Origin: a virus
Lineage: Duplodnaviria > Heunggongvirae > Uroviricota > Caudoviricetes
Strand: one strand, 5' to 3'
IMG/VR virus record: IMGVR_UViG_2923334124_000002
DNA length: 56,113 nucleotides
The translations under genes were made by a program, and so were the position numbers. Below the pieces are notes generated by a model. The model made no database searches and had not been told where the DNA came from. It worked only from the letters and a program-made list of their open reading frames with translations. Shown here one piece after another: positions 2,399-45,852 of this stretch (positions within the stretch are counted from its first letter, which is position 1; the number at the start of each line of letters is the position of its first letter).

Positions 2399-2426
2399 AT
2401 TATCTAAAACCTCGGTTTACAGGAAA
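2399..2426. other. gix/pix-like inversion crossover site (ttatctaaaacctcggtttacaggaaac)
   Basis: matches the remembered gix consensus TTATCCAAAACCTCGGTTTACAGGAA; inverted copy at 5478..5505. Confidence 0.6.
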
Positions 2427-3439
2427 CGGTAAACAAGGCTGGTAACGCCGTTCAGCGTTCCGGCGATAAAATGACCGGAGAACTGAAAATTGGCACGGTG
2501 AATGCGCTGCGAATTTTCAATGATGCCTTCGGTCTTATTTTCCGTCGTTCAGAAGATTTTCTTCATTTCATTCCGACGGCTGAAGGACAAGGCGAAAACG
2601 GTGATATCGGCCCATTAAGGCCATTCGCTATAAATCTGAGAACAGGTGCTATATCTGTCAGCCACGGGGCCAAAATTGATGGTGGGCTGGCGCTTGGTAC
2701 AGATAACGCACTGGGCGGTAATTCCATTACTCTCGGAGATAACGACACTGGTATTAAACAGGGCGGCGACGGTGTCCTTTTATTCTATTCAAATGGACAA
2801 CTGGCATTTGGGCTTCAACCCGCATCTGCTGATTTTTATAAGCGGGTTGCATATATTCATCAGGGAATAATTCCTGATGGAAGTGGCGCATTTGCAGACC
2901 AGTTGAATAATGCCACCGCGCCTTTTGTTCAGACGCAGTTTGCCTGGAATCCCACTCCTGGTGGTCTTTACGTGCCGATAGTTAAGGGCTTGTCCATTCG
3001 CAATGGACAGGGCTATCCCGGCGCGGTCAGCTTTGGGTATTTACTGACAGAACAGTATGGATTTCCGGTTCCATGTATTCATATGCGTGGCGATGGCGGT
3101 AATGATGCTTTATGGCAGTTTAACCCGAACGATAAATCCTTTATTTCACCGGGTGCTCTTATTGCGGGTGGCGTCCGTTATAACACCGATGGAAATATAT
3201 TTGGTGGGTGCTGGGGGTCAAACTTAAATGATTACCTGAATAGTTCTTTTATCAGAAATGTGCGTCTGGGAGGCAGACGTTCTGACACATTATATCGCGG
3301 AGGACTTTGCGAACCAGGTAATGGTCATGTGACAACAGGATTGCAAATTATTGGTGAGGTTGATGGAGATGACTGGATGGTGTCACGACCACTACAAAAA
3401 TACATTTCTGGTAACTGGTATAACGTTGAACAGGCATAG
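2427..3439 (+). CDS. silent alternative tail-fiber C-terminal cassette (Sv'-like, promoterless in this orientation)
   Basis: shares the ALGGNSIxLGDNDTGxKQxGDG block with the C-terminal part of Stf; starts at the crossover site; followed by its own tfa. Confidence 0.6.
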
Positions 3440-3454
3440 CCATCAGGAGAATAT

Positions 3455-3982
3455 ATGCAACATCTGAAAAATATTACCGCCGGAAACCCCAAAACCATTG
3501 AGCAGTATCAGCTTACGAAAAAAGCTGGCGTTATCTGGCTATATACAGAAGACGGTAAAAACTGGTATGACGAATTAAAAAACTTTCAGGATGATACTTT
3601 AAAAATAGCTTATGACCAGAAGGGGATTATTCGTTGTATTGAGAAAGACGTATCAACACTTAACCCTGACGGGTTAAGTGTTGTTGAGTTACCGAATATA
3701 ACAGCCAACCGTCGCGCCGATATCTCGGGAAACTGGAAGTTTCTGGATGGTAAAGTAGTAAAGCGGGAATATACAAAACAGGAACTGCAACAGCAGGCAG
3801 AGTTACAAAAAGCCGCTTTGCTTTCCGAAGCGGAGTCTGTGATTCAACCGCTGGAACGTGCTGTCAGACTGAATATGGCAACTGATGAGGAACGCACACG
3901 ACTGGAATCATGGGAACGCTACAGCGTTATGGTCAGCCGTGTGGATACTGCAAAGCCTGAATGGCCACAGAAACCAGAATAA
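3455..3982 (+). CDS. tfa: tail fiber assembly protein (alternative copy, U'-like)
   Basis: 175 aa; [14 protein letters not shown]... N-terminus and ...[10 protein letters not shown]-terminus typical of Tfa. Confidence 0.8.
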
Positions 3983-4012
3983 CAACAAATTAAGGCCCGT
4001 ACGGGCCTTTTC

Positions 4013-4546
4013 TTATTCTGGTGGTTCCGGGAATGTTACAGGAAGAACCGAGGTATCAGTTGTCTCAACCTGTTGCACGTATCGCATCCAGTTCATCAGT
4101 TGCTGTCTGTCTGAATCAGTGATAATCCCCAAAGTAAGCTGTGTTTGCCAGAACTGCGTTTTTTCTCTGGCCTGCTGTAATAATATTTTTTTCTGGTTTT
4201 CCGTCTGTAGGCGCAACTCTTCTTCGGTATATACACGTTTAATGACTGCGCCATCTTTAAACATCCATTTACCTGAGTCGTCAGCACGCCGGTTGGCGGT
4301 AATATCAGGAATCTCAACGACGCTATAACCTTCAGGGTTAAGTGTGGAGGCATCTTTGGTTATGGCAACAATAATATTATTTTCATCGTAAACAATCTTT
4401 ATGGTGTCTGGCTGAAAGTTTTTCACTTCCTCATACCAGTTTTTTCCGTCCTCAGAGTAAAGCCAGATAACTCCGTGTTTCTTTGTTAACTCATACTGTT
4501 CCAGTGTTTTAGCATTACCCGCTTTTATGTTCTTTAAGTGCATCAT
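4013..4546 (-). CDS. tfa: tail fiber assembly protein (expressed copy)
   Basis: 177 aa; paralogous to 3455..3982; immediately downstream of stf. Confidence 0.85.
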
Positions 4547-4547
4547 A

Positions 4548-7373
4548 TTAAACGCTCGCTACATTATACCAGGTGCCATTTATATACTTTTGAACGGGTC
4601 TGTAATAAACGCCCGCTATATTATCGGCAGAGTTAGACCCTGTATCCTGAACATTAATACCAGACAATACATGACCTGAAGGGCACTGGAAATTCCATGT
4701 TTGCCAGTTGTTCACTCCATAATATTGCTGTGAACCAAGTCGAACATCTTTCACATAACGGGAATCAAAGTTACCGTAATCCGAGGGGTTAACACGCCCT
4801 GTAATATTTATGGTTTTATTACTTTGAATGCTTCCGGAGACAAAGCGCATAACATGGACGTTATTAGCATAAACATCCAGATTACCATCGCCATTTTGTT
4901 TAAAGCCCGTGTCATTATCACCCAATACAATCGAATTACCGCCAAGAGCACTGGATGTTCCGATACCCAGTGCACCATTCAGTTGACCACCAGATAACGG
5001 CAGTGCACCAACATCTCCTGCTGAAGGCTTTCTGGTGGTGGTGTAAAATTCGGACCAGTCGGCTTCAAAACCATAACCATCACGGGCTGAACGATAAAAA
5101 ATACCGCCATTTTTATAATTAATCCGAAACTGAGCTGCAGGACAACTTCCTTCTCCCATATAAAAATGAATAATTAACGTTGATGCACCACTAATAGTTG
5201 CGTTATAGGCTCCGCTACTCCAGTTCCATCCAACTGCTTTATCATTCGCAACGGTGCTTCCTGTTTTCCCTAAGGCAAACGCACCAACATGACTTGCTTT
5301 TAATGTGATATCGGAGGAACCATCAAAAGCCACATTGCTTATTTTCCTGGCAGTTTTTAATTTTGCAGCTGTAGAAGCATTGCCGGATAGTTCACCAGAA
5401 AGGCCACCGCTGAATGTTTGTCGATTAGTCCAGGTATTCGCTGTACTGAGTAACGGTATTTTCTCCCCGCTTGTGCCGAGTTCTCGTAAACCGAGGTATT
5501 CGATAACGGCGGCAACGGTCGATTTCGCAAGAATATCCCGCCCAACTTTTGTCAGGGTTGCCAGACTGGCAACATCATTCCCCGTAAAATACGGAAACCT
5601 GTCTGCCGCAGTAGCAAGCCCGGCCAGCGCCGTCAGGGTGGCATCTTTCGGTTGCTTACCCGCAAGCGCGCTAGTCATGGTGGTCGCAAAATTCGGGTCG
5701 TTGCCCAACGCCGCAGCCAGCTCGTTCAGCGTATTCAGTGCGTCAGGCGACGAGTCCACGAGGGCAGCGATCGCAGCCATAACATAAGCCGTGCTTGCGA
5801 TTTGGGTATTATTCGTTCCCTGTCGCGCAGTTGGTGTTGTTGGCGTTCCGGTCAGTGCAGGACTATTTAAGGGCGCTTTCTTGTTCGTTTCACCCATTAC
5901 CGCCTTAACCGCTTTTGGCGTTGCCGCCAGTGACTCGGAAGTGCTGTTGGTCGCACTGCTGAGCTGTACTATCCCCTTTTTCGTCGTGCTCGCATCCTCA
6001 AGCGCCACGGCGGATGCAATATCCTCTGCCCGTTTTGCCGCTGTCTCGGCGCGCGTTGCCGCGGATTCCGCCGTACTTTTGCTCTGAGCTGCCGCCGTCG
6101 CACTGCCAGCTGCCTCTGTCGCCTTCGTGGATGCCGTCGTGGCGCTGCCCTTTGCTGCTGACGCCTGTCTGGTCGCCTCATCTTTTGAAGCAGACGCAGA
6201 TGATGCCGATGACGCCGCTGAACTGGCTGACGATGCGGCTGCCGCCTTAGAGGAAGCAGCATTGTCTGCTGAAGTCTTTGCATTTGTTTCAGAGGTTTTT
6301 GCTGCAGAAGCAGACCTCGCTGCTGCAGTGGCTTGCTCAGTGGCTTTGCCAGCCTTCGTTGTGGCTGTTGAAGCGGATGATGCGGCGCTTTCTGCCGATT
6401 TTCCGGCGGCGGTGGCACTGGCTGAGGCCTGCCCGGCACTTGTTGACGCGGCACTGGCAGATAATGCAGCCGCTGTTTTTGAACCTGCCGCAGCTGAGGC
6501 GCTCTGTCCCGCTGCTGTTTCAGAAGACTTAGCGTTCGTCTCGGACGTTTTTGCCGCCTTCGCGGAATTTCCTGCCGCCGTTGCCGAGGAAGCTGCACTA
6601 CTGGCACTTGATGATGCATTCGTTTCTGAAGATTTCGCTGCCTCTTTTGAGGCCGCCGCACCCCGTGCCGAGGTGGCAGCTTCTGACGCCTTCGTGGTCG
6701 CTGTGGATGCAGAAGTGGCTGCCGATTTTTGTGATGCTGCGGCATTCGTTTCTGACGTTTTCGCGGCACTGGCGCTGGTAGCTGCCGCGCTTTTTGATGA
6801 CTCTGCAGCAGCAGCACTTTTTGCTGCTTCACGGGCCTTTGTCGATGCCGTTCCTGCGCTGGAAGACGCTGACTGAGCCGACGACGCGGCCTGTCCGGCT
6901 GACGTGCTGGCGGCACGTGATGAGGCTGCAGCATCGGTTGCATGAGTTGCCGCCTCGCTGGCTGATGCACTGGCATCGCTGGCTGATTTTTTCGCGGCTG
7001 CCGTATTCTGTGCAACCGCGGAGGCGTTACGTGACACCTCTTCTACCATCTGCTCAAAGCGGCGCAGTGCCTCCGGTCGTACATCATCCTCCGTCATGGC
7101 ACCGAGAAAATCATTCAGCGTACCTGGTCTGGAACCTTCATAGACGGTAATGGTCCCGGCATGTGAAGGCGGAAAACCTTCAACCAGCAGGGTGACGCTG
7201 TACTGACCATGCTCAACATCCATGCTGTAACGTCCGGCTTCATCCGGATTTTCAGAGGCCACCGTGTTCACCACCACCGTGCTGCTGGTTCGTCTGGCCT
7301 TCAGCACAATGGTGCAGTTCTGTACTGGTTTTCCTGTGCCATCTTTAAGCACGCCAGAAATTTTTACTGTCAT
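4548..7373 (-). CDS. stf: side tail fiber protein (lambda Stf-like) with long Ala/Ser/Thr-rich low-complexity region
   Basis: 941 aa; N-terminus [22 protein letters not shown]... closely matches remembered lambda Stf; C-terminal about 310 aa lie inside the invertible segment. Confidence 0.85.
5478..5505. other. gix/pix-like inversion crossover site inside stf (inverted relative to 2399..2426)
   Basis: reverse complement ttatcgaatacctcggtttacgagaac matches site at 2399..2426 with about 4 mismatches. Confidence 0.6.
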
Positions 7374-7834: not shown

Positions 7835-8584
7835 TCACTGATCTCCTTCGGTCAACGGAGATTGTATTTTCCGCATTGATTCTCCTTTAAGTTCGATCTT
7901 GATACTGCCATGAACCAGTCGATCTAGGATGGCATCCGCATGTGTGGAGTCTCCGATCATTTTGTACCAGTTTTCCACCGGCAACTGGCTCACTACGATG
8001 ATTGAGCCTCGTTGGTACATCAGATCCACTATTTCCAGCAGGTCGCTACGCTGTTCTGATGAGAGAGGTTCCAGCCCCCAGTCATCCAGAAGCAGCAGAT
8101 CGCTATTATTCAGCCTGGTCAAAAGTTTGCTGTATCTTCCATCAGCATGCCCCTGATAGCACTGTTCCATCAGCGCTTTAAGGCGATAATAGTAGACCTT
8201 GTATCCCTGTCGGCAGGCATTATGACCAAGTGCACATGCCAGGAACGTTTTACCGCTGCCGGTGGCCCCGGTCAGTAAAATATTTTGTTTCAGGGTTAAC
8301 CAGTTTCCCTGACTGAGTGAACGGATGAGGGCCCTGTCCAGCCCTCTATTGTTACGATAATCCAGCTTTGATAACTCAGCATTAAGTCTGAACCGTGCAT
8401 GTTTGATCAGACGCTCTGCCTTCCTGTTTTCACGGCAGGTTAGTTCTTCTGCTGTCAGTAATGACAGGCGTTCTTCGAAGCCCAGCTCCTGGTATGTGCC
8501 CGGTTGAGCAAGTTGCTTTTTAAGCGCATCACGGAAGCCGGTGAGTTTAAGTGCGGTCAGTTGTTCGTAAAGATGATTCATCAT
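7835..8584 (-). CDS. istB: IS21-family helper ATPase IstB
   Basis: 249 aa; Walker A GATGSGKT; DnaC-like. Confidence 0.9.
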   Translation of the reverse strand: MMNHLYEQLTALKLTGFRDALKKQLAQPGTYQELGFEERLSLLTAEELTCRENRKAERLIKHARFRLNAELSKLDYRNNRGLDRALIRSLSQGNWLTLKQNILLTGATGSGKTFLACALGHNACRQGYKVYYYRLKALMEQCYQGHADGRYSKLLTRLNNSDLLLLDDWGLEPLSSEQRSDLLEIVDLMYQRGSIIVVSQLPVENWYKMIGDSTHADAILDRLVHGSIKIELKGESMRKIQSPLTEGDQ

Positions 8585-8595
8585 TGGATCCCGTA

Positions 8596-10137
8596 TCAGT
8601 GGTAATACTCACTGCCGCGTACGTTTTCGTGTTCCATCGTGGATAACAGATCTGGTTTTGGATCCTGAACAGGTTGTTTATCCAGACCTTTTTCCAGGAT
8701 CGATTTAATACCTGACAGACGCCATACCTTTGTTTTCAGAGCTCTTGCACATGCTGCATTAAGTCTGGCTTTACTGTATTTTTTATGAAGGTTCAGGAGT
8801 CCAAGGCAGAAGCGATAGCTTTGTTCCGGATGTGGACGAGAGTTCAGTATATGAAGCACATAACTATGAGTTTCACTGCCTATGTGCCCCGCCCATTCCA
8901 GAAGACGCTCTGGCGTCCAGGTGGCATGCTGTCGATGAGCTTCAGGCATGTGCTCGTTGCGGGTACTGTAGCCATAAGTACGCTTGCGCGGGTGCACAGC
9001 AACCTCCTGCCCCTGATTGAAGAGTCTTACCAGTTCTCCGGAGATCCATGCTTCCAGTTGCTGGCCTAACAGCGAACATGGAACCGAGTAGTAATGTTTG
9101 TCGATTTCCACGTGGTAATCGGCATGAACTCTGACTTTCTTCACCAGGGTGTAACTGTAACTGGCTTCAGGAAGAGGCTTCAGTGCGGGTTTATCAAGCT
9201 GGATGAAGAGTTCTGCACGTGAATAACCCAACTTCTGCATTATTTTGTTATTCAGTCTTTCCAGCAACTCCCGAATGCGCTGATTAAGCGATGCAAGGCT
9301 GTAGAAGATCTCATGCCTGATTCGGGCCATGATCCAGCGTTCAACAACCTGAACGCCAACTTCAGCTTTGGCTTTATCTTTCGGTTTACGTGGCCGCGCA
9401 GGCAAAACTGCGACATTATAATGCTCAAGCATCTGCTGGTAGGTAGGGTTAACGTCAGGATCATACTTACATGCCCTGGATGTGGCGCTTTTCAGATTGT
9501 CCGGAACAACAAGTTCAGGAACGCCACCCAACCACTGGAAGCAGCGAACATGACTCATCACCCAGTCTTCAAGCTGCTGAGACCAGGTGGCCTCTGCCCA
9601 TGTGTAACTTGATGCCCCGAGAACAGCTACGATGACCTGAGCAGTTCTTATTTCTCCGGTCTCAGGGTCGGTAACGCCAACGGTAGGTCCACAGTAATCA
9701 ACGAAAAGTTTTTCGCCAGCTTTATGTACCTGACGCATTGATGGTGAAGTGGTTTTGAGCCATTCACGGTACATCCGGCAGTAATGGTTATAGCTGTAAA
9801 AACCGCCTGGATTACGCTCACAGTATTCTTCCCAGAGTAGCTGCAGCGTCACGCATTTATTACGCAGTTCCCGGTGTACTGTAGCCCAGTCAGGCAGAGA
9901 GTGCTTCTTCATCTTAACCTGGGTCTGAAGGAACGCATGTTTTAGTTTTGTATCATCCCATCCTGTAGGTAAGGGCCACTGCTTTATGCCAAGTTGAGCC
10001 GCCCGATTAGCATATCTGGATACAACGGAAGGGGAGATTGCAAGACTACGACCAATTTGTCGATGGCTGAGTCCAACACCGTATTTAAGCCTAAGAATTT
10101 CTTTAAGTTTTCTCATAGAAATTGGAACTGTTGGCAT
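8596..10137 (-). CDS. istA: IS21-family transposase IstA
   Basis: 513 aa; N-terminal HTH and DDE-type core characteristic of IstA. Confidence 0.9.
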   Translation of the reverse strand: MPTVPISMRKLKEILRLKYGVGLSHRQIGRSLAISPSVVSRYANRAAQLGIKQWPLPTGWDDTKLKHAFLQTQVKMKKHSLPDWATVHRELRNKCVTLQLLWEEYCERNPGGFYSYNHYCRMYREWLKTTSPSMRQVHKAGEKLFVDYCGPTVGVTDPETGEIRTAQVIVAVLGASSYTWAEATWSQQLEDWVMSHVRCFQWLGGVPELVVPDNLKSATSRACKYDPDVNPTYQQMLEHYNVAVLPARPRKPKDKAKAEVGVQVVERWIMARIRHEIFYSLASLNQRIRELLERLNNKIMQKLGYSRAELFIQLDKPALKPLPEASYSYTLVKKVRVHADYHVEIDKHYYSVPCSLLGQQLEAWISGELVRLFNQGQEVAVHPRKRTYGYSTRNEHMPEAHRQHATWTPERLLEWAGHIGSETHSYVLHILNSRPHPEQSYRFCLGLLNLHKKYSKARLNAACARALKTKVWRLSGIKSILEKGLDKQPVQDPKPDLLSTMEHENVRGSEYYH

Positions 10138-33190: not shown

Positions 33191-33358
33191 GGATATTTAT
33201 CAGGATTTATCGGTTTCTGAGCCCTGGATATGTTTATCAGTTCCAGCCTGTTGCCTCAGGCTGCTAACAGGTCGTAAGCGTAAACTGACCGCCGTATGTA
33301 GCCATCAGACGAGAATTGGTAACTTAGACGCCCATCTGATATAGACGGACATCTAAGT

Positions 33359-33784
33359 ATGGAATTACAGGACTGGCGAAAAGAACCTCGTAAAAACTAT
33401 TCGAATGAATTCAAACTTCGTATGGTGGAACTGGCATCACAACCTGGAGCTTGTGTTGCACAGATTGCACGTGAAAATGGCGTCAATGATAATGTTATTT
33501 TCAAATGGCTCAGGCTCTGGCAGAACGAAGGGCGTGTTTCGCGGCGTCTTCCGGTAACGACCTCTTCTGACACTGGCGTTGAATTATTACCTGTAGAAAT
33601 AACGCCGGATGAGCAGAAAGAACCTGTGGCGGCCATTGCGCCGTCTTTATCCACTTCCACTCAGACCAGAGTCAGTGCCAGTTCCTGCAAGGTGGAATTC
33701 CGTCACGGTAACATGACGCTGGAAAATCCATCGCCAGAGCTGCTCACAGTGTTGATCCGTGAACTGACCGGGAGGGGAAGATGA
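33359..33784 (+). CDS. tnpA: IS66-family accessory protein TnpA (orf1)
   Basis: 141 aa; HTH; first ORF of IS66-type element. Confidence 0.8.
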   Translation: MELQDWRKEPRKNYSNEFKLRMVELASQPGACVAQIARENGVNDNVIFKWLRLWQNEGRVSRRLPVTTSSDTGVELLPVEITPDEQKEPVAAIAPSLSTSTQTRVSASSCKVEFRHGNMTLENPSPELLTVLIRELTGRGR

Positions 33785-34131
33785 TCTCACTCCCATCAGG
33801 TACCCGTATCTGGCTCGTTGCCGGCGTTACCGATATGCGTAAATCCTTCAACGGACTGGGAGAACAGGTACAACATGTGCTGAATGATAATCCCTTCTCC
33901 GGTCACCTGTTTATCTTCCGTGGCCGACGGGGTGACACCGTCAAAATTCTTTGGGCTGATGCTGATGGTCTGTGCCTGTTCACCAAACGCCTGGAGGAAG
34001 GCCAGTTTATCTGGCCTGCGGTACGTGACGGCAAGGTATCCATTACCCGCTCGCAACTGGCAATGCTCCTCGATAAGCTGGACTGGCGTCAGCCAAAAAC
34101 ATCCAGCCGTAACTCACTGACAATGTTGTAA
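33781..34131 (+). CDS. tnpB: IS66-family accessory protein TnpB (orf2)
   Basis: 116 aa; conserved IS66 Orf2 pattern; overlapping stop/start with orf1. Confidence 0.85.
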   Translation: MISLPSGTRIWLVAGVTDMRKSFNGLGEQVQHVLNDNPFSGHLFIFRGRRGDTVKILWADADGLCLFTKRLEEGQFIWPAVRDGKVSITRSQLAMLLDKLDWRQPKTSSRNSLTML

Positions 34132-34161
34132 AAAACTCCTGACCGCATTATAAAAACGGTC

Positions 34162-35775
34162 ATGAGTCAGAAATACCTCATTCGCATCGCAGAGCTGGAA
34201 AGGTTGCTCTCTGAGCAGGCTGAAGCCCTCCGTCAGAAAGACCAGCAACTGAGTCTGGTTGAAGAGACGGAAGCCTTCCTGCGCTCTGCACTGACACGTG
34301 CCGAAGAAAAGATCGAAGAAGATGAACGGGAAATAGAACATCTGCGGGCTCAGATAGAAAAACTGCGCCGGATGCTGTTCGGTACCCGTTCTGAAAAACT
34401 GCGTCGTGAAGTTGAACTGGCTGAGGCTCTGCTGAAACAACGTGAACAGGACAGCGATCGTTACAGTGGGCGGGAAGACGATCCTCAGGTTCCCCGCCAG
34501 TTGCGACAGTCGCGCCATCGTCGTCCGTTACCGGCACACCTTCCCCGTGAAATACACCGCCTGGAGCCAGAAGAAAGCTGTTGCCCGGAGTGTGGCGGTG
34601 AGCTGGATTATCTGGGGGAAGTCAGCGCTGAACAGCTGGAACTGGTGAGCAGTGCCCTGAAAGTGATCCGCACAGAACGGGTAAAAAAAGCCTGTACAAA
34701 ATGTGACTGTATTGTTGAAGCACCGGCGCCGTCCCGCCCGATAGAGCGTGGTATCGCGGGCCCCGGATTACTTGCCCGCGTGTTAACGGGAAAATACTGC
34801 GAACATCTGCCACTGTATCGTCAGAGTGAAATCTTTGCCCGCCAGGGTGTCGAACTGAGCCGGGCCTTACTCTCCAACTGGGTTGACGCGTGCTGCCAGT
34901 TAATGACACCGGTGAATGATGCCCTGTACCGTTATGTAATGAACACCCGCAAGGTTCACACTGATGACACACCGGTAAAGGTACTGGCACCGGGTCAGAA
35001 AAAGGCGAAAACAGGGCGTATCTGGACGTATGTCCGGGATGATCGCAATGTGGGTTCGTCATCTCCTCCAGCGGTCTGGTTCGCGTACTCGCCGAACCGG
35101 CAGGGGAAACACCCGGAGCAACACCTCCGCCCCTTCCGGGGTATCCTGCAGGCGGATGCGTTCACAGGTTACGACAGGTTGTTCAGTGCAGAACGTGAAG
35201 GTGGTGCACTGACAGAAGTTGCGTGCTGGGCCCATGCCCGGCGAAAAATCCACGATGTATACATCAGCAGCAAAAGTGCGACGGCAGAAGAAGCCCTGAA
35301 GCGAATCAGTGAACTGTACGCCATCGAGGATGAAATACGGGGATTACCGGAGTCAGAGCGTCTTGCCGTCAGGCAGCAGCGAAGCAAAGTGTTACTGACG
35401 TCGCTGCATGAATGGATGGTGGAGAAGAATGGTACGCTGTCGAAAAAATCCAGACTGGGCGAAGCGTTCAGCTATGTACTGAATCAGTGGGATGCCCTCT
35501 GTTATTACAGTGATGACGGTCTGGCGGAGGCGGATAATAATGCTGCGGAAAGAGCGCTTCGTGCAGTCTGTCTCGGAAAGAAAAACTTTATGTTCTTTGG
35601 CAGCGATCACGGCGGCGAGCGTGGAGCACTGTTGTACGGGCTGATCGGCACCTGCCGTCTGAACGGTATCGATCCGGAAGCGTATCTGCGCCATATCCTG
35701 AGCGTACTGCCGGAATGGCCTTCCAACCGAGTTGACGAACTCCTGCCATGGAACGTAGTACTCACCAATAAATAA
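34162..35775 (+). CDS. tnpC: IS66-family transposase (TnpC)
   Basis: 537 aa; leucine-zipper N-terminus, zinc-ribbon CPECGG, DDE core. Confidence 0.9.
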   Translation: MSQKYLIRIAELERLLSEQAEALRQKDQQLSLVEETEAFLRSALTRAEEKIEEDEREIEHLRAQIEKLRRMLFGTRSEKLRREVELAEALLKQREQDSDRYSGREDDPQVPRQLRQSRHRRPLPAHLPREIHRLEPEESCCPECGGELDYLGEVSAEQLELVSSALKVIRTERVKKACTKCDCIVEAPAPSRPIERGIAGPGLLARVLTGKYCEHLPLYRQSEIFARQGVELSRALLSNWVDACCQLMTPVNDALYRYVMNTRKVHTDDTPVKVLAPGQKKAKTGRIWTYVRDDRNVGSSSPPAVWFAYSPNRQGKHPEQHLRPFRGILQADAFTGYDRLFSAEREGGALTEVACWAHARRKIHDVYISSKSATAEEALKRISELYAIEDEIRGLPESERLAVRQQRSKVLLTSLHEWMVEKNGTLSKKSRLGEAFSYVLNQWDALCYYSDDGLAEADNNAAERALRAVCLGKKNFMFFGSDHGGERGALLYGLIGTCRLNGIDPEAYLRHILSVLPEWPSNRVDELLPWNVVLTNK

Positions 35776-35835
35776 GCGTCAATACGGTGCTCCGTTGACG
35801 CTTACAACAGGTCAATACAATCATGAGGATTATTT

Positions 35836-36788: not shown

Positions 36789-38657
36789 TTATGATGATGC
36801 CGGTGCATTTATCTCCAGCACCAGACTTTCTATCTCAACGCCATACGTTGCATTTTTGGTAATATCCGTCAGCGTCAGCGCATTCAGCCCCAGTGTCAGA
36901 CTGTCTTTTATGACCTGGAATGCCGGGCCAGCCACTCCATTCAGTTTCGGAGTAACCGTGGCACTGCCGGCGGTGAACACCAGCTCCAGCGTCTGCCAGT
37001 CGTTACTGTAATTCCCGAACTCGCCCAACTTTGTGTTTCCTGCTTTCTTGTGATGCATCAGATTCAGTTTGCCGTCTGTGGTCTGGGTGAAGAACGACAT
37101 CAGGAACGGGTTACCAGTCCCGGTCATCGCCACGACGTCAGGTAACGCTACATCGGTATACAGATAAATTCCCAGACCGAACTGATTGTTGGTCAGTGCG
37201 CCTGACAGTCGAAACTTACAGCTCAGTCTGCCACCCCGTGTCAGCAGGGAGACTGCGTCATCCACCGGGCGCGTCAGGGACCAGGCTTTATTGCTCTGCT
37301 TGGTGATCTTAAATACACCATCTGACAACTGAATTCCGCCATTCTTAATGCTCCAGCCCTGCGCAGCAGCATCTCCGGCTGTCGGCAACAGGGAGATTGT
37401 GCGTACGGATGCATCTTCAGACGGCCCCGATGGCGTGTCGCCGCCGGGCGAGGGTTTGATTTCCGGTGCCTTACCACTAATGAAGGCTAAGGTGCGACCG
37501 GCTACGTTCAGAATAGCAGTTGCCATACGATCGGGAATAATGCCACGACGCGCCCATGAGCTGAAATGCGTCGGGCGATTTGATGATACCCAGTTTTTGT
37601 TCGTTCGGGATGCCGAACCGTAATAACCAGACCCGGCAATATCAGGATCTTCTGACGGGTTGTTTGTCGGTGTATTAACTCCGCTACCATCGGTCATAAA
37701 GGGAACAAAATAAATCTGCTGGGATTCTTTACCTTTATATGCACCATATACCACTTCATATTGCGTACCGTGTTCTTGTTTCCACGCGTATGTCGTGTCG
37801 CCACAAATCCAGGGGACTGATGCCGGACTTCCACCGTGACACTGCGCCGCCAGCCCGGCAAGGTCAGCACGGAACTGCTGTACCATTGCAAGAAATGCTG
37901 CTGGCTGCTGGGCGTAACTGGCATTCGTCATATCGAATTCCCCCTGCATCCAGCATATCGCCAGCAAAACGTTTTTCGGGTTTTTCTGCAATGCTGCCTT
38001 CGTGCGGAAAAGCAGATCCTGATATAACGGCTTACCCACTCCCCAGCGAGCCGAATCCTGACTGGCCCCCGTGGACTCGCTGAATGTCCCCTCCGTGCCC
38101 TGGGTGAATGCCGAACCACCACGACAGCATGGTACCAGCAGGATCCCCGCATTATTAGGGATATACGGAAGCAGTTTTTTGGCAATATGTAAGCCCTGTC
38201 CGACACAGCCGTACTGCCCTTTGCTCAGGTCAGCCCGGGGATGGTTAATCGTACTCATATCCTGAACATCATGCAGACAATGGTCAGCAGGAATGATGTC
38301 GTTAAATACGCATACTTCACCACCGGGAGTCACTGTGTTACGACGGGCCAGTTGCTTAATGCGCGGATGGGGCGCATCGTATGAATCCGGAAGCGGAAGC
38401 CCTTCACCGTAAGCCATGGCATTGGATTGCCCGGCCAGTACGATGACGTAGTACCACTCCGGCTCAGTTGCACCACTGACGACCACATCACCTTCTGCTG
38501 CAATCGCCTGCATCAGGGTATAAGGGGTTATGGCCACCGGACTACCAAACGGCTGCCAGCCCTCTTTCAGTTTATGTGTCAGCTTTTCCGCAAGATCTGA
38601 CGGCGACGCCGCCCTGACAACATCATAGTGTTTAAATGCCATGGTTCTTTCCACCAT
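36789..38657 (-). CDS. nanS-p: NanS-p-type sialate O-acetylesterase (SGNH hydrolase) typical of Stx-phage late regions
   Basis: 622 aa; GQSN catalytic block; sits immediately upstream of the holin, as the esterase gene does downstream of stx in Stx phages. Confidence 0.75.
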   Translation of the reverse strand: MVERTMAFKHYDVVRAASPSDLAEKLTHKLKEGWQPFGSPVAITPYTLMQAIAAEGDVVVSGATEPEWYYVIVLAGQSNAMAYGEGLPLPDSYDAPHPRIKQLARRNTVTPGGEVCVFNDIIPADHCLHDVQDMSTINHPRADLSKGQYGCVGQGLHIAKKLLPYIPNNAGILLVPCCRGGSAFTQGTEGTFSESTGASQDSARWGVGKPLYQDLLFRTKAALQKNPKNVLLAICWMQGEFDMTNASYAQQPAAFLAMVQQFRADLAGLAAQCHGGSPASVPWICGDTTYAWKQEHGTQYEVVYGAYKGKESQQIYFVPFMTDGSGVNTPTNNPSEDPDIAGSGYYGSASRTNKNWVSSNRPTHFSSWARRGIIPDRMATAILNVAGRTLAFISGKAPEIKPSPGGDTPSGPSEDASVRTISLLPTAGDAAAQGWSIKNGGIQLSDGVFKITKQSNKAWSLTRPVDDAVSLLTRGGRLSCKFRLSGALTNNQFGLGIYLYTDVALPDVVAMTGTGNPFLMSFFTQTTDGKLNLMHHKKAGNTKLGEFGNYSNDWQTLELVFTAGSATVTPKLNGVAGPAFQVIKDSLTLGLNALTLTDITKNATYGVEIESLVLEINAPASS

Positions 38658-38902
38658 CTGAAAAATGATTCTTTAAAATACCTGACATGTAATACAGAAA
38701 AAACACAAAACCATACCTTAAATAAAAACCTCATCATCAAGCAGATATGCATGGATAAACTACAAGACGAGATATAAACCACCCTGCATTTAAATAAACA
38801 ATAAACAACATCAGAAAAATAATTCTGCTCTATGGTTTACAATCAAAAATATCATTTATACTTTTCAGAACATCACCAGCAAGGCATAAACAAGGAAACT
38901 AA

Positions 38903-39238
38903 ATGAAGTGGATTGTGATTGATACAGTTATCCAGCCATCATGCGGAATATCTTTTTCAGTCATATGGAGTAAAATAAAATTAATAATCTGGTATCAATC
39001 GGATGCTTTCTTACCTCCTGAAAGTATATTTACACTGACTCACACAGGCATCATGCTCAATAACAAAGTGCTACCTGTAACCATTTACAACGTAGTACCA
39101 TTCAATAAAACATTCTGGAATTTAATCAAAAACAGCCAGGAATGCCCTACAAATACAGATAACGTATTGAATGAATGCTTTAATAACCGTTGCACTCTGC
39201 AAATATGTCCTTATGGACTAAAACAACAAAGTCCATAA
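38903..39238 (+). CDS. hypothetical AT-rich cargo ORF (111 aa, Cys-rich C-terminus)
   Basis: SD AAGGAAA 7 nt upstream; low GC versus flanks; no family recognised. Confidence 0.35.
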
Positions 39239-39685
39239 GGAGTTTACTCACATCTGACAAAATCAATATAAACAGCCCCTCCGGAGAGGGGCTGGAGAGT
39301 GGCGCTATGTGCCATTGCATGGTGCCGGGTGCCTCCCGGTGAATTCAGTACCAGCACCTGAATCCGCGATTATCCCATATACCTACTCGCTGATTGCCCC
39401 TCCGCACAGGGGGATTCACCATGCCAGTTTCTTTTAACAAACTCCCCGCAAACCAGACAACAATCAACCGCCTGAATTGTGAAGTATTTAAAAATTTCTC
39501 CCGCTAACTGATACCCGGCTAACAGTCTGGCGTTTTCTTTTTCAGCAACGGGAAAGCAACAACCACCACACCCGCCACCAGCACACCGTCAGCCAGCACT
39601 GACATTATCCGGCTGCAGCAATGCCATTCACAAAAACAGTAAGCAATCACTTTTTACCGTAACCGGTGATAATCCAGATATGTAT

Positions 39686-40042
39686 CTACCCCAGATGAGT
39701 AATCCGAAGTTCATCCATACCACAGGTCCTGGCTATTCTGTTGTACTCCTGAACAAGAGTAAATAATTCTGAATTAGCCACCATGAACTCATCGCAAACC
39801 CTCTGTATAGCATCACTATTCAGAATAATAACGTCTCTTCCCGAAAGACGATCAGGAGTACAGAACAAAACTGTCAAACGGCTGAAGGCCTTTGCTCGTG
39901 CTGCATTGACTATATCAATACGCTGCCTAAGGATGAAACACCCCGACGCCTCATCAATATTCACTCTACCCACACCATATGAATGATAAATATTTAATGC
40001 TGAAAAAACCATTAGACCGTATAACAAACACTCAATCAACAC
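39686..40042 (-). CDS. hypothetical ORF (GTG start in track; possible ATG start at 40012)
   Basis: ORF only; weak translation signals. Confidence 0.2.
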   Translation of the reverse strand: MLIECLLYGLMVFSALNIYHSYGVGRVNIDEASGCFILRQRIDIVNAARAKAFSRLTVLFCTPDRLSGRDVIILNSDAIQRVCDEFMVANSELFTLVQEYNRIARTCGMDELRITHLG

Positions 40043-40149
40043 TTAACAGAACTTTTATTTTTGACAAACATATAATATTTTCAACAATATCCTGAGCCAG
40101 GTATATTTCAGTATAAGGCTCTGCCGGAAGGAATCTGGAAGAATGAATA

Positions 40150-40226
40150 TGGCGCGCTGTACTGGATTCGAACCAGTGACCGATTGCTTAGAAGGCAATT
40201 GCTCTGTCCGGCTGAGCTAACAACGC
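40150..40226 (-). tRNA. argO: tRNA-Arg (anticodon TCT)
   Basis: cloverleaf-compatible 77-nt sequence gcgttgttagctcagc...ccttCTaagc...ttcgaatcc...gcgcgcca read on minus strand. Confidence 0.8.
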
Positions 40227-40326
40227 TGAATACCGATAATGGACCGCCATCGGGGACCCGCCCCCGCACCAACAACCCTGTTATCGTGTCGTCTGCTCTT
40301 CCTGATAAGCTAATGGCGGTTTGTGA

Positions 40327-40402
40327 TGGTGGCCCTTGCTGGATTTGAACCAGCGACCTGGCGATTATGAGTCGCTCGCTCTCACCACTGAGCTAAAGGG
40401 CC
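40327..40402 (-). tRNA. ileZ: tRNA-Ile2 (anticodon CAT, lysidine-type) or tRNA-Met
   Basis: ggccctttagctcagtggtgagagc...actCATaatcg...ggttcaaatcc...gggccacca; closely resembles remembered ileX/ileZ. Confidence 0.8.
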
Positions 40403-40451: not shown

Positions 40452-41501
40452 TCAAACGATTAAACCCTGAACTTCCCTGACTGTCTGCTCAAAACGTCCG
40501 GTCTCCAGCTCAACGCCAATCGCACGACGCCCGAGCGCCAGTGCCGCTTTTACCGTTGAACCTGAGCCCATAAAAAAATCTGCAACCAGGTCACCCGGAC
40601 GACTGCTTGCGCTGATTATCTGCTGCAGCATTTCTGCCGGTTTTTCGCACGGATGTTTCCCGGGATAGAACTGCACCGGTTTATGTGTCCACACATCCGT
40701 GTACGGCACCTGCGCCGTCACACCAAAATACCGCCGCAGATGCTTATATTCACTCTGCAGCTCCACATACTGCCGGTTCAGTGACGTATACGTATCCACC
40801 AGCTGGTGGTGGGGCTTTTCCAGTTCACCGCGCTGATGTTTCTCTTCTGCCACCCGGGCAAACAGCGACTGTAATTTCAGATAATCGCTTTCGTTCGGTA
40901 GCTGCCACTGACTGGCACTGAACCAGTGCGACACCATGTTTTTCTTTCCTGTGGCATCTGCAATCTGTTTTGCCGTTATCCCCAGGGCCGCGCGCGCATC
41001 ACGAAAGTAAGAAATCAGCGGGGCCATCACATGCTGTTTCAGTGCACTGCCCTTCGCCGCATACCCGGCATCTTTCGGACGATACGGCCCCTGATAATGT
41101 TCCGCGAACAGAATGCGCTCTGTGGCGGGGAAATACGCCCGCAGGCTTTCCTTGTTGCATCCGTTCCAGCGTCCGGACGGCTTCGCCCAGATAATATGGT
41201 TCAGCACACTGAAGCGTTCACGCATCATGATTTCGATATCAGATGCCAGGCGATGACCACAGAACAGGTAAAGACTTCCGGCAGGTTTCAGCACCCGCCA
41301 GAACTGCGCCAGACACTGGTCCAGCCACTTCAGGTAATCATCGTCGCCCTTCCACTGGTTATCCCAGCCCTCAGGCTTCACTTTAAAGTACGGCGGGTCC
41401 GTGACTATCAGGTCAACAGAATTTTCGGGTAACGACCGGATAAATTCCAGGCAGTCGGCGTTGATTAACTCACAACTGGATATTTTTACAGTATTAGCCA
41501 T
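40452..41501 (-). CDS. DNA methyltransferase (N6-adenine/N4-cytosine class, DPPY motif), orphan
   Basis: 349 aa; VTDPPYF motif IV and C-terminal FxGSGST AdoMet motif; position between Q and tRNAs as in Stx phages. Confidence 0.85.
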   Translation of the reverse strand: MANTVKISSCELINADCLEFIRSLPENSVDLIVTDPPYFKVKPEGWDNQWKGDDDYLKWLDQCLAQFWRVLKPAGSLYLFCGHRLASDIEIMMRERFSVLNHIIWAKPSGRWNGCNKESLRAYFPATERILFAEHYQGPYRPKDAGYAAKGSALKQHVMAPLISYFRDARAALGITAKQIADATGKKNMVSHWFSASQWQLPNESDYLKLQSLFARVAEEKHQRGELEKPHHQLVDTYTSLNRQYVELQSEYKHLRRYFGVTAQVPYTDVWTHKPVQFYPGKHPCEKPAEMLQQIISASSRPGDLVADFFMGSGSTVKAALALGRRAIGVELETGRFEQTVREVQGLIV

Positions 41502-41652: not shown

Positions 41653-41850
41653 TCACTGCGGAAGGCGTCTGTAACAACCGAACTGATAGTCTGCCAGACC
41701 CGCCATAACCAGCTGGGTCAGTATTAACTGGCAGCGTTCGCGTGAAAGGTAAGTATTCTGCGCAATCTCCCCGGCTGTCGCCGGTTCGGTGACGCTTAAT
41801 TCATTAAACACCACTCTGGCGGTTTCTGTCATATCCTGCTGTTTCAGCAT
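41653..41850 (-). CDS. hypothetical small protein (65 aa) between Q and methyltransferase
   Basis: internal start MLKQQDMTE with SD AAGGGA; followed by hairpin terminator. Confidence 0.4.
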   Translation of the reverse strand: MLKQQDMTETARVVFNELSVTEPATAGEIAQNTYLSRERCQLILTQLVMAGLADYQFGCYRRLPQ

Positions 41851-42076
41851 GTCTTTTTCCCTTTTCCGGTTAACGTGACACACCAATAACTCTTGTCGAA
41901 AAAGCCAGCAAGCTGAAAGACAGGTATTCACCGCCACCAGCGCGTTTACTGTACTGACGCGATTTCAGTCATAAAAAACCCGCCAGGCGGCGGGGTGTAA
42001 AAAATCTTCTAACGTCAGGCATAAAACGCCCATCGTTAGAGCAAATTTACCACAGATTCGGGAAAAATCAACAACA

Positions 42077-42898
42077 CTATCGCGTTACCCTCTTTAACTG
42101 CCGCTCCGCCCATGCCTCTTCAATGTCAAACCGAACCACCAACGTATCGTAAAAGCGTTTCACTGATTTTTTCCACGTATCAAGCGTGATAGCACTCGTC
42201 ACTTTGCATATGGCATTAAATGCCTCCGTTGATGGTAGTCTTTCACAGCCACGACCACCACAACGCTGGCAGTCTCTGATAACAGGCATACCACGTTTTA
42301 CCGACTCTTCACGATGAATGGCGACACCACGCCCACGGCAGTCTTTACAGGCAGTGGAAATCTCCCCCTTCCCTTTACATTCAGGACAAGAAACTTTCAC
42401 CACCTCCCGAATTTTTTTCCATTCTTCCCAGTAAGACGGATACACACCTTTCGTACACTTTGCCCATACTGGCGGCTTGCCATCCGGATACTGAACCTTG
42501 TTTGTAAAAACTTCGCCTTCAATAAATTTTTCCCCTCGGCAACAGGGGCACTGCTTTTTACTCGCTGCGCTGCGGGCATAATCCTCAAAAGCGTACGAAG
42601 CCATAATGCGCATCACTACCGGTTTTATTTCTGCCGGAAGTTTTCTCAACGCCGCCACACGATCGCACCGACTGAGTGCATAATCTGCCAGTAATTCTGT
42701 TGCCCGCGCCCTGTCATTCATACTGATGCCCATTTTCCCCAGGAACGCAGAAAACCCCATCTCAGCCCGATTCTGTGTCATGCCCTGCGCGGCCATCACA
42801 TCAGTGATACTCAGCGCATCTTTCGACGTTGAGGCCGATGCATCAGTCAGGCCGGGGGATTTTGGGGAGTAGTATTTCGGTAAATCTTCCAGTTTCAT
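42077..42898 (-). CDS. Q: late-gene antiterminator Q (zinc-binding type)
   Basis: 273 aa with several CxxC pairs; located between rusA and the late/lysis region. Confidence 0.7.
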   Translation of the reverse strand: MKLEDLPKYYSPKSPGLTDASASTSKDALSITDVMAAQGMTQNRAEMGFSAFLGKMGISMNDRARATELLADYALSRCDRVAALRKLPAEIKPVVMRIMASYAFEDYARSAASKKQCPCCRGEKFIEGEVFTNKVQYPDGKPPVWAKCTKGVYPSYWEEWKKIREVVKVSCPECKGKGEISTACKDCRGRGVAIHREESVKRGMPVIRDCQRCGGRGCERLPSTEAFNAICKVTSAITLDTWKKSVKRFYDTLVVRFDIEEAWAERQLKRVTR

Positions 42899-44772: not shown

Positions 44773-44928
44773 TTACTCCTCAGGTTCGTAAGCTGTGAAG
44801 ACAGCGACCTCCGTCTGGCCGGTTCGGAGTCGTACCTCGCAGAGGTCTTTCCTCGTTACCAGTGCCGTCACTATGACGGTTAAACAGATGACGATCAGGG
44901 CGATTAACATCGCCTTTTGCTGCTTCAT
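44773..44928 (-). CDS. hok: Hok-family type I toxin (HokD/RelF-like)
   Basis: MKQQKAMLIALIVICLTVIVTALVTRKDLCEVRLRTGQTEVAVFTAYEPEE is near-identical to remembered HokD. Confidence 0.85.
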   Translation of the reverse strand: MKQQKAMLIALIVICLTVIVTALVTRKDLCEVRLRTGQTEVAVFTAYEPEE

Positions 44929-45165: not shown

Positions 45166-45852
45166 TCACTCCTTCTCTTCTTTTCCGTAGTGGAGTTGGC
45201 CAATTTTGATAAGAGGGCGTCCCTGAGATTTGCGGTGTAGATTGGTATCGCGCAGAGAATACACACAGCCACAATATTCCTGCTGATAGAATTTTTCGCG
45301 CTTGCTGATTTCAATCATACGGGACGAGCCGCCCTGCTTGCGCCAGTTATAATCCCAGTACACCATACCCGGATAATGCGCAACAGCTCGCCGCCCACAC
45401 TCGTTAACCTGCTGCATATTTTTCCAGCGTGAAATGCCCAGTGAACTGCTGATCACACTGAAACCATTTTCAGCAGCGTACAACGCTGTCCGCTCAAAAC
45501 GCATGTCAAAACACATGGTACAACGGATCCCCCTCTCAGGCTCCCATTCCATTCCTTTGGCACGTTCAAACCAGTTGTCGGTGTCGTAATCAGCATCGAT
45601 AAACGGCACGCCGTGTTGTTCAGCAAAGCGAATATTTTCATCCTTACGAATTAAATACTCTTTCTGAGGATGAATGTTCGGGTTGTAGAAAAAGATGGTG
45701 TAGTCGATTCCCGAGGCCTGAAGCGCCTCCATCACTTCACCGGAACATGGAGCACAGCAAGAGTGCAGTAGTAGTTTGTTTGCCCCGTTTGGGAGCTCCA
45801 ATTTAGGCCGTTTGAAATCAGCAATAGTCATAAATATTTTTATTGGGGTCAT
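45166..45852 (-). CDS. queH: DUF208 / epoxyqueuosine reductase QueH-like protein
   Basis: 228 aa; [39 protein letters not shown] motifs match remembered DUF208/QueH signature. Confidence 0.7.

What the first reader, a model, noticed from the sequence alone, without database searches (positions are those of the whole stretch)
38658..40149. Unknown AT-rich cargo at the position where Stx phages carry stx
The late region has the Stx-phage layout (Q, DPPY methyltransferase, tRNA-Ile2/tRNA-Arg, then the nanS-p esterase and lysis genes), but the 1.5-kb slot between the tRNAs and nanS-p holds no stx. It holds two convergent ORFs of unknown function instead (38903..39238 plus, 111 aa with a Cys-rich C-terminus and a good SD; 39686..40042 minus), separated by a perfect hairpin cagcccctccggagaggggctg at about 39272..39293, plus a possible 28-aa hydrophobic peptide on the minus strand near 39600. 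GC content is clearly lower than in the flanks. This slot is the classic Q-dependent, lysis-coupled cargo site, so whatever sits here is expressed at induction.
Basis: partly seen in the sequence, partly recalled or inferred. Interest (0 to 1): 0.7.

Follow-up and report, generated by a model that had tools for sequence, protein, structure and literature searches.

The report
iraL, STnc100 and two small phage genes
The "unknown cargo" is mostly catalogued prophage parts: the known stress-response regulator gene iraL, a known phage small RNA whose terminator is the hairpin, a DUF3927 mini-protein, and one conserved 92-residue phage protein whose function is still unknown. It is an ordinary locus.

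Summary
The sequence features are real, but the interval is not unknown cargo.

- **iraL (38903..39238, +):** 100% nucleotide-identical to iraL of UPEC CFT073, a characterised RssB anti-adaptor that stabilises RpoS. Its published 5' end maps to 38870. It is transcribed against the late operon from its own sigma-70 promoter.
- **STnc100 (39453..39264, -):** the "perfect hairpin" (39273..39294) is the intrinsic terminator of this prophage sRNA (Rfam RF02076, 132 bits). The same sRNA lies 75 nt after stxB in phage 933W.
- **DUF3927 (39650..39519, -):** the "28-aa hydrophobic peptide" is the C-terminal part of a 43-aa DUF3927/TciB-like protein.
- **92-aa protein (39964..39686, -):** the 118-aa minus ORF has a conserved 92-aa core (phrog_2873). 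It is a helical hairpin with dN/dS of about 0.25. Its function is unknown, and RefSeq does not annotate it in this lineage.

Stx2a phage Stx2_EH1910 has the same Q-methyltransferase-tRNA backbone and the order stx2AB, STnc100, antisense iraM-like gene, nanS-p. So iraL accompanies stx rather than replacing it. Only the 92-aa gene and the DUF3927 gene occupy the stx-equivalent position.

The whole interval occurs in 863 of 5426 complete E. coli genomes. Verdict: already known, low interest.

The parts
38836..38870 (+). iraL promoter: -35 TTTACA (38836..38841), -10 TATACT (38857..38862), transcription start at 38870
   Evidence: The published 5' RACE sequence of iraL mRNA (ACATCACCAGCAAGGCATAAACAAGGAAAC...) matches from 38870. 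The upstream region aligns with CFT073 with only a few SNPs and is unrelated to the K-12 iraM upstream region. The hexamers are my reading of the sequence; the paper infers sigma-70 dependence.
38903..39238 (+). iraL, a 111-aa RssB anti-adaptor of the IraM/IraL family, transcribed against the phage late operon
   Evidence: 0 nucleotide differences from the CFT073 iraL CDS, and an identical protein. Same RefSeq protein WP_000871291.1 in CFT073 and in ST131 strain 4/1-1. NCBIfam NF007393 at 162 bits against a cutoff of 121. PDB 8twd IraM at E = 9e-32. 62% identity to K-12 IraM. phrog_4407.
39264..39453 (-). STnc100-family prophage sRNA on the late strand
   Evidence: Rfam RF02076 at 132.4 bits (gathering score 47), E = 4.9e-30, model positions 1-206 of 206. 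Homologous copies lie 75 nt after stxB in 933W and Stx2_EH1910. EDL933 copies are transcribed and one was confirmed by Northern blot (PMC5331693).
39273..39294 (-). Intrinsic terminator hairpin of STnc100 (9-bp stem, 7 GC pairs, 4-nt loop, then TTTATATTGATTTTG).
   Evidence: Terminator scan on the minus strand. It aligns to the terminal stem of the Rfam model. The plus strand has no T-run after the stem.
39519..39650 (-). 43-aa DUF3927/TciB-like small hydrophobic protein.
   Evidence: Pfam PF13064 at 93.2 bits, E = 9.6e-27. phrog_1470 'TciB-like', E = 1.1e-12. PGAP annotates it as a DUF3927 family protein. In phage JLK-2012, tciB occupies the same position before STnc100 and yjhS.
39686..39964 (-). 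92-aa conserved phage protein (phrog_2873), a helical hairpin of unknown function.
   Evidence: phrog_2873 at 193 bits, E = 1.7e-57. Three diverged lineages give dN/dS 0.25-0.28 with an excess of third-position changes. The sense frame is stop-free in all three lineages, while the antisense frame has stops in two. Distant relatives are 91-95 aa and start at this point. AlphaFold2 gives pLDDT 88 with two helices, 3-34 and 50-81. PGAP annotates the ETEC6333 homolog as a 92-aa hypothetical protein but annotates nothing in this lineage.
39965..40149 (-). AT-rich spacer (GC 0.319) between tRNA-Arg and the 92-aa gene. It includes the non-conserved N-terminal extension of the mechanical 118-aa ORF.
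   Evidence: Composition. The extension is interrupted by stops or frameshifts in the other two lineages. Only weak promoter-like matches, no more than shuffled sequence gives.
40150..40402 (-). tRNA-Arg(TCT) and tRNA(CAT, Ile2-type), which mark the upstream edge of the slot
   Evidence: ARAGORN, Rfam tRNA matches, PGAP annotation of the identical sequence.

Best explanation
The 1.5-kb interval is a mosaic of four catalogued lambdoid-prophage accessory elements. It lies between the late-operon tRNAs and nanS-p.

**Order along the late (minus) strand**
- tRNA-Arg
- a 92-aa helical-hairpin protein (phrog_2873, function unknown)
- a 43-aa DUF3927/TciB-like membrane peptide
- the STnc100 sRNA, ending in its intrinsic terminator, which is the 'perfect hairpin'

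Converging on that terminator from the other side is iraL, with its own sigma-70 promoter (transcription start 38870).

**Mechanism, and the basis of each step**
- *From the literature on the identical gene:* IraL is made in uninduced, log-phase lysogens. [quoted passage not shown] That makes it a lysogenic-conversion function, not an induction-coupled one.
- *Shown here by comparison with Stx2 phages:* STnc100 is the conserved element that follows the cargo. An IraM-family gene or the AsxR sRNA sits antisense between STnc100 and nanS-p. Only the 92-aa gene and the DUF3927 gene occupy the position that stxAB occupies.
- *Inferred:* those two genes, and STnc100, are transcribed by Q-modified RNA polymerase at induction. 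STnc100 is probably also made in the lysogen.
- *Not known:* the biochemical role of the 92-aa protein and of DUF3927.
For: **Identity of iraL**
- CDS with 0 nucleotide differences from CFT073; same WP accession.
- NCBIfam score above the curated cutoff; PDB IraM match.
- Published transcription start and 5' UTR found at 38870.
- Published function and RssB N-domain binding (PMC4045071). IraL levels rise in a CFT073 fur mutant (PMC7157518).

**STnc100**
- Full-length Rfam match that includes the hairpin.
- Same element 75 nt after stxB in 933W and Stx2_EH1910 (PMC12370729).
- Transcribed in EDL933.

**DUF3927**
-.

**92-aa gene**
-.
- A homolog lies about 1 kb downstream of a Q-like antiterminator.

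**Architecture and distribution**
- Shared with a Stx2a phage on the same backbone.
- IraM-family genes occur in at least 32 Stx2 phage records.
- The whole interval is present in 863 of 5426 complete E. coli genomes, and the best hits are ST131 strains at 100% identity.
Against: - Nothing here measures expression in this strain.
- The start codon of the 92-aa gene is a GTG with a weak Shine-Dalgarno sequence (UGGG) in this lineage. PGAP does not call the gene here.
- No promoter for STnc100 could be assigned from sequence.
- The prophage carries an IS66-family insertion inside its lysis cassette and an IS21-family element in lom. It may therefore be defective, and late expression may be abnormal.
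- The hairpin has no U-tract on the plus strand, so how iraL transcripts end is unknown.
Confidence: 0.9

Rival explanations
1. The late-strand pair (92-aa protein plus DUF3927 peptide) is a functional, Q-dependent, induction-coupled cargo analogous to stx. It could be a toxin, a lysis-timing or membrane factor, or a superinfection-exclusion or anti-defence module released or active at lysis.
For: - Both genes lie exactly where stx2AB lies on the same backbone, and on the late strand.
- The 92-aa gene is under purifying selection and is found again downstream of a Q-like gene.
- tciA/tciB occupy the same position in JLK-2012.
- PHROGs classes DUF3927 as a moron.
Against: - No similarity to any toxin, defence (PADLOC) or lysis family.
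- Fold matches are generic helical hairpins.
- Weak ribosome-binding site; no expression data.
- The 'TciB' name derives from a P1 operon named by similarity, not from an experiment on this protein.
Confidence: 0.25
2. The 118/92-aa minus-strand ORF is not a gene. It would be a chance open frame in an AT-rich spacer, which is why PGAP leaves it out.
For: - RefSeq annotates nothing under it in the listed genomes that carry it.
- No Pfam or NCBIfam family.
- The N-terminal 26 codons are not conserved, and the start context is weak.
Against: - dN/dS is 0.25-0.28 between three lineages that are 68-71% identical in DNA, with about twice as many changes at third positions.
- The frame is stop-free in all three lineages, where shuffles give P of about 0.002-0.003 each. 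The antisense frame that shares the wobble phase has internal stops in two lineages.
- Homologs at 32-40% identity have the same 91-95 aa length.
- phrog_2873 at 193 bits.
- Confident AlphaFold2 model, pLDDT 88.
- PGAP does annotate the ETEC6333 homolog.
Confidence: 0.08
3. The convergent STnc100/iraL arrangement is a regulatory switch. At induction, Q-modified polymerase ignores the STnc100 terminator and runs antisense across iraL, shutting off IraL and hence RpoS stabilisation. In the lysogen, iraL transcripts that pass the hairpin (no U-tract on that strand) are antisense to STnc100. This is compatible with the best explanation and would add to it.
For: - The iraL stop codon (39238) is 26 nt from the sRNA 3' end (39264). 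The hairpin has a U-run only on the minus strand.
- The same tight convergent pairing recurs in CFT073, vB_EcoS-640R1 and Stx2_EH1910, where the gap is 8 nt.
- In 933W, the AsxR sRNA takes the same antisense position.
Against: - Purely positional inference with no expression data.
- Convergent morons that share a terminator are common in phage genomes and need no regulatory meaning.
- K-12 iraM works without any STnc100 neighbour.
Confidence: 0.25

Closest known systems
IraL of uropathogenic E. coli CFT073 (Hryckowian et al. 2014, mBio, PMC4045071)
   Same: Identical protein and identical CDS. The promoter and 5' UTR are nearly identical. The prophage context is the same: Q, tRNAs, DUF3927, STnc100 region, antisense iraL, then a nanS-p remnant and the holin.
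   Different: In the window nanS-p is intact, a DNA methyltransferase lies between Q and the tRNAs, and there is one tRNA-Arg instead of two. The promoter region carries three SNPs.
IraM of E. coli K-12 (PDB 8twd; NCBIfam NF007393)
   Same: Homologous over the full length, at 62% identity. The four C-terminal cysteines are conserved. Same target, RssB.
   Different: The upstream region is different: there is no similarity to the K-12 iraM promoter region. According to the literature, K-12 iraM responds to Mg2+ starvation and binds both RssB domains, whereas IraL acts in log phase and binds only the N-terminal domain. K-12 iraM lies next to the end of e14 and has no STnc100 neighbour.
STnc100 (Rfam RF02076) and the related PasD prophage sRNAs (Zhu, Shabalina and Storz, bioRxiv 2026)
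   Same: Full-length match to the covariance model, including the terminator. Prophage late-region location next to an esterase gene.
   Different: The central part (model positions about 60-90) is shorter and diverged compared with the 933W copy: 132 bits here against 208 bits there. Targets are unknown.
The stx2AB slot of Stx2 phages (933W; Stx2_EH1910, LC567834)
   Same: Same order: Q, (methyltransferase), tRNA-Ile2/Arg, cargo, STnc100, an antisense element, nanS-p, lysis genes. The backbone is 92.7% identical to Stx2_EH1910.
   Different: The cargo is a 92-aa helical protein plus a 43-aa DUF3927 peptide instead of stx2A/stx2B. The antisense element is iraL here, an iraM-like gene in EH1910, and AsxR in 933W.
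tciA/tciB of phage JLK-2012 and P1 (phrog_1470)
   Same: The DUF3927 peptide matches the TciB-like PHROG. In JLK-2012, tciB lies in the same place before STnc100 and yjhS.
   Different: The gene upstream here is not TciA; BLASTP finds no alignment. The 'tellurite/colicin/cell division' label comes from the similarity of P1 tciA to terB and is untested for this peptide.

Membership tests
IraM/IraL anti-adaptor family (NCBIfam NF007393) | Score above the curated family cutoff over the full length | tested here: met
   162 bits against a cutoff of 121; residues 1-110 align to profile positions 1-113 of 114.
IraM/IraL anti-adaptor family (NCBIfam NF007393) | Sequence identity to an experimentally characterised member | tested here: met
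   100% protein and nucleotide identity to CFT073 iraL. 62% to K-12 IraM. PDB 8twd at E = 9e-32.
IraM/IraL anti-adaptor family (NCBIfam NF007393) | The iraL-specific sigma-70 promoter and mapped 5' end | tested here: met
   30 of the 32 published 5' RACE bases match from 38870. The upstream region aligns with CFT073.
IraM/IraL anti-adaptor family (NCBIfam NF007393) | Binds RssB and stabilises RpoS | not testable with these tools
   Shown for the identical protein in CFT073 (PMC4045071). Not measured for this strain.
STnc100 sRNA (Rfam RF02076) | Covariance-model score above the gathering threshold, full length | tested here: met
   132.4 bits against 47; model positions 1-206 of 206.
STnc100 sRNA (Rfam RF02076) | 3' Rho-independent terminator (GC-rich stem plus U-run) | tested here: met
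   9-bp stem with 7 GC pairs, followed by TTTATATTGATTTTG on the minus strand.
STnc100 sRNA (Rfam RF02076) | Expressed as a discrete small transcript | not testable with these tools
   EDL933 copies have RNA-seq reads and one was confirmed by Northern blot (PMC5331693). No promoter could be assigned here.
DUF3927 (Pfam PF13064) / TciB-like phrog_1470 | Score above the Pfam gathering threshold | tested here: met
   93.2 bits against 25, E = 9.6e-27. phrog_1470 at E = 1.1e-12.
phrog_2873 (phage protein of unknown function) | Profile match over the conserved core | tested here: met
   193 bits, E = 1.7e-57; residues 1-92 align to profile positions 17-108 of 108.
phrog_2873 (phage protein of unknown function) | Codon-level constraint showing that it is a real gene | tested here: met
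   dN/dS 0.25-0.28. The frame is open in three lineages, while the antisense frame is interrupted in two.
Shiga toxin operon (stxA/stxB) | Presence of RIP A-subunit and B-subunit genes in the slot | tested here: not met
   No ORF in 38658..40149 matches a toxin family in Pfam or NCBIfam. Stx phages share only the sRNA segment of this interval.
Known anti-phage defence systems (PADLOC) | Match of any slot protein to a defence-system model | tested here: not met
   0 families for IraL, the 92-aa protein, DUF3927 and three distant homologs.

The most novel reading that the evidence does not exclude
The 92-aa helical-hairpin protein (phrog_2873) and the DUF3927 peptide form an uncharacterised, Q-driven late cargo module at the exact stx position. 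In addition, the tight convergent STnc100/iraL pair acts as a switch. Late read-through of the sRNA terminator would silence iraL, and with it RpoS stabilisation, when the prophage commits to lysis. This would link the phage lytic decision to the host general stress response.
Probability: 0.15. Interest if true: 0.45.

Novelty: already known. Interest (0 to 1): 0.15.

Why it matters
The result matters mainly as a correction. An interval that looks like mystery cargo when read raw is a well-populated, modular accessory region of lambdoid prophages.

- **Host physiology.** IraL changes the host by raising sigma-S in growing cells of UPEC, ST131 and Shigella lineages.
- **Shared layout.** The same arrangement (cargo, STnc100, antisense IraM-family gene or AsxR, nanS-p) is found in Stx2 phages. 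Stx2 lysogens of that type therefore also carry an RpoS-stabilising gene beside the toxin genes.
- **Modest leads.**
  - One conserved phage gene is missing from RefSeq annotation of this lineage.
  - The STnc100 element may act as the fixed boundary at which cargo is exchanged.
  - The convergent sRNA/iraL arrangement may be regulatory.

Tried and rejected
**Function of the 92-aa protein: nothing informative**
- No Pfam, NCBIfam or PADLOC match.
- A PDB profile search gave only non-significant hits: UPF0335/GapR at E = 0.05-0.25 and RAD23 UBA at E = 0.22. I rejected these as chance.
- An exhaustive HMM search of 1.84 billion representatives found only 22 relatives.
- TciA of JLK-2012 is not related to it.
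- A more distant relative, P0033 (phrog_4827), lies in a Mu-like tail region, so its context does not help.

**The 118-aa reading of the ORF: rejected**
- The first 26 codons are out of frame or interrupted in other lineages.
- AlphaFold2 gave them low confidence.

**Other negative or inconclusive checks**
- I looked for an STnc100 remnant beside K-12 iraM and found none.
- I tried to place a promoter for STnc100 from an alignment of six copies. A -10-like element aligns, but no convincing -35 does, so I left it open.
- The promoter and terminator scan of the slot gives counts no higher than shuffled sequence. Only the sRNA terminator is supported, and that support comes from the Rfam model.
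- PGAP's partial 'hypothetical protein' pseudogene at 39309..39434 (+) lies antisense inside STnc100. I regard it as spurious.

Full report
**Observation**

The late region of this prophage runs on the minus strand:
- Q antiterminator, 42898..42077 (PF03589)
- N6/N4 DNA methyltransferase with a DPPY motif, 41501..40452
- tRNA(CAT), 40402..40327
- tRNA-Arg(TCT), 40226..40150
- the 1.5-kb interval under study
- a nanS-p-type esterase, 38657..36789 (DUF1737 + SASA + DUF6645)

ARAGORN calls the CAT tRNA Met.

Both ORFs, the hairpin (39273..39294) and the small hydrophobic peptide are present.

GC is 0.395 for the interval against 0.52 for the window. The drop comes from two AT-rich blocks:
- the iraL promoter (0.294) and CDS (0.345)
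- the spacer after tRNA-Arg (0.319), with ORF92 at 0.441

The centre is at or above the window average: the sRNA is 0.553 and the DUF3927 gene 0.508.

**The plus-strand ORF is iraL**

- It scores 162 bits against NCBIfam NF007393 'anti-adapter protein IraM', whose cutoff is 121.
- It matches the solved IraM chain 8twd at E = 9e-32.
- It is 62% identical to K-12 IraM.
- The interval is 100% identical to many ST131 chromosomes. PGAP annotates WP_000871291.1 there. The same accession is annotated in the potB prophage of CFT073.
- The CDS has no nucleotide difference from CFT073.

This CFT073 gene is iraL, characterised by Hryckowian et al. 2014 (PMC4045071). In that paper:
- IraL stabilises RpoS in log phase.
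- It lies on the potB island.
- Its mRNA 5' end was mapped by RACE.

That 5' sequence starts at window position 38870. It is preceded by TATACT (38857..38862) and TTTACA (38836..38841). The upstream region aligns with CFT073 and not with K-12 iraM.

iraL is therefore a self-promoted gene that points against the late operon.

**The hairpin is the terminator of an sRNA**

- Rfam finds a full-length STnc100 (RF02076) at 39453..39264 on the minus strand: 132.4 bits against a gathering score of 47, E = 4.9e-30.
- STnc100 copies are transcribed in EDL933, and one was confirmed by Northern blot.
- A copy lies 75 nt after stx2B in Stx2 phages.
- STnc100 and PasD are described as related prophage sRNAs associated with esterase genes.

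**The small peptide is a DUF3927 protein**

- The 43-aa ORF 39650..39519 matches PF13064 at 93 bits and the TciB-like phrog_1470.
- PGAP annotates it.
- The 'Tci' label comes from a P1 operon named by similarity to ter genes, not from an experiment on this protein.

**The minus-strand ORF is a real gene, but shorter than read**

PGAP annotates nothing here in this lineage. The evidence that it is nevertheless a gene:
- Protein searches found diverged homologs.
- Three lineages (the window, ETEC6333 and isolate 07-4299) are 68-71% identical in DNA and 60-65% in protein.
- Third-position changes are about twice as frequent as changes at the other positions, and dN/dS is 0.25-0.28.
- The antisense frame that shares the wobble phase gives a similar ratio. 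However, it has internal stops in two lineages, while the sense frame is open in all three. Shuffles give P of about 0.002-0.003 for each open frame.
- Conservation begins at the GTG at 39964 (VNIDE...). The upstream 26 codons are interrupted elsewhere.
- More distant relatives are 91-95 aa.
- PGAP calls the ETEC6333 copy as 92 aa.

The 92-aa core matches phrog_2873 at 193 bits, a family of unknown function. AlphaFold2 models two long antiparallel helices with pLDDT 88. Fold searches return only generic helical hairpins. There is no match in Pfam, NCBIfam, PADLOC or PDB. One homolog lies about 1 kb downstream of a Q-like gene.

**Comparison with Stx phages**

- **933W:** the order is tRNAs, stx2A/B, STnc100 (75 nt after stxB), AsxR on the opposite strand, nanS-p.
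- **Stx2_EH1910:** it shares this window's Q-methyltransferase-tRNA segment at 92.7% identity over its whole length. Its order is tRNAs, stx2A/B, STnc100, an antisense iraM-like gene (73% identical to IraL, 8 nt from the sRNA end), nanS-p.
- **Across phage records:** IraM-family genes occur in 46 records, and at least 32 of those are Stx2-converting phages.
- **JLK-2012:** tciA/tciB precede STnc100 and yjhS.

iraL therefore accompanies stx and does not replace it. The stx-equivalent cargo in this window is the 92-aa gene plus the DUF3927 gene. The 92-aa gene is rare in sequenced phages, found only in mEp460_ev081. Its DNA is nevertheless present in about 1200-1300 of 5426 complete E. coli genomes. 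The entire interval is present in 863 of them.

**Mechanism**

- *Established for the identical gene:* IraL blocks RssB, so RpoS escapes ClpXP in growing lysogens.
- *Inferred from position:* the late-strand genes and STnc100 are read by Q-modified polymerase at induction.
- *Possible but untested:* that read-through crosses the sRNA terminator and runs antisense over iraL.
- *Caveat:* relative to the otherwise identical ST131 strain 4/1-1, this window carries an IS66-family insertion in the lysis cassette. Both carry ISEc12 in lom. The prophage may therefore be defective.

**Verdict**

The content, however, is catalogued. One element is a characterised gene, one is a curated sRNA family, and one is a Pfam DUF. 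The last is a PHROG family of unknown function that RefSeq misses in this lineage. Novelty: already known. Interest: low.

Noticed in passing
window 33274..35805: A 2.5-kb IS66-family element (ORFs of 141, 116 and 537 aa, the usual three-ORF IS66-type layout) is inserted in the lysis cassette, between the YdfR-family/hypothetical genes and the lysozyme gene. The otherwise identical prophage of ST131 strain 4/1-1 lacks it, and the flanks overlap by 8 bp, consistent with a target-site duplication. The insertion may uncouple holin from endolysin expression.
   Followed up: partly
window 2394..4332: This tail-fibre and tail-fibre-assembly segment matches strain 4/1-1 at 99.8% identity but in the opposite orientation to the rest of the prophage. 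That suggests an invertible host-range segment, or a rearrangement.
   Followed up: no
window about 7835..10137: An IS21-family element (ISEc12, istA/istB) splits the lom (Ail/Lom) gene. This comes from the annotation of the collinear strain 4/1-1 record.
   Followed up: no
L011 (Stx2a phage Stx2_EH1910) 9877..10200; 46 phage records: A third IraM-family variant lies antisense between STnc100 and nanS-p, directly beside stx2AB. It is 73% identical to IraL, has 107 residues, and keeps the four C-terminal cysteines. It occurs in many Stx2a and Stx2c phages, and most records leave it unannotated.
   Followed up: partly
L009 (933W) 3485..3537: The AsxR sRNA of 933W occupies the same antisense position, between the STnc100 3' end and nanS-p, that iraL occupies here. 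This position appears to be a recurrent insertion point for antisense accessory elements.
   Followed up: partly
L006 (E. coli 07-4299) 3665..6616; L002 4607..5264: STnc100 occurs in five copies in one prophage late region, four of them in tandem just before nanS-p. It occurs in two copies in phage vB_EcoS-640R1, each following a small cargo gene. This is consistent with STnc100 acting as a repeated module boundary.
   Followed up: no
window 39309..39434 (+): PGAP annotates a partial 'hypothetical protein' pseudogene here in identical genomes. It lies entirely antisense within the STnc100 match and is probably an annotation artefact.
   Followed up: partly
window 41653..41937 (-): A small ORF between Q and the methyltransferase (PGAP calls a 65-aa version) has a weak TrmB-like winged-helix match (E = 0.0037). 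Its phiP27 counterpart is annotated as a TrmB family regulator. It could be a regulator sitting in the early part of the late transcript.
   Followed up: no
window about 45166..45831 (-) and 44773..44928 (-): The nin region carries a QueH (epoxyqueuosine reductase) homolog and a hokD toxin gene. This comes from the annotation of the identical strain 4/1-1 sequence.
   Followed up: no
window 23658..24251: BLAST of the window against the collinear record shows extra self-matches offset by 162 nt, at 88-91% identity. This indicates tandem 162-nt repeats inside the gene annotated as portal protein.
   Followed up: no
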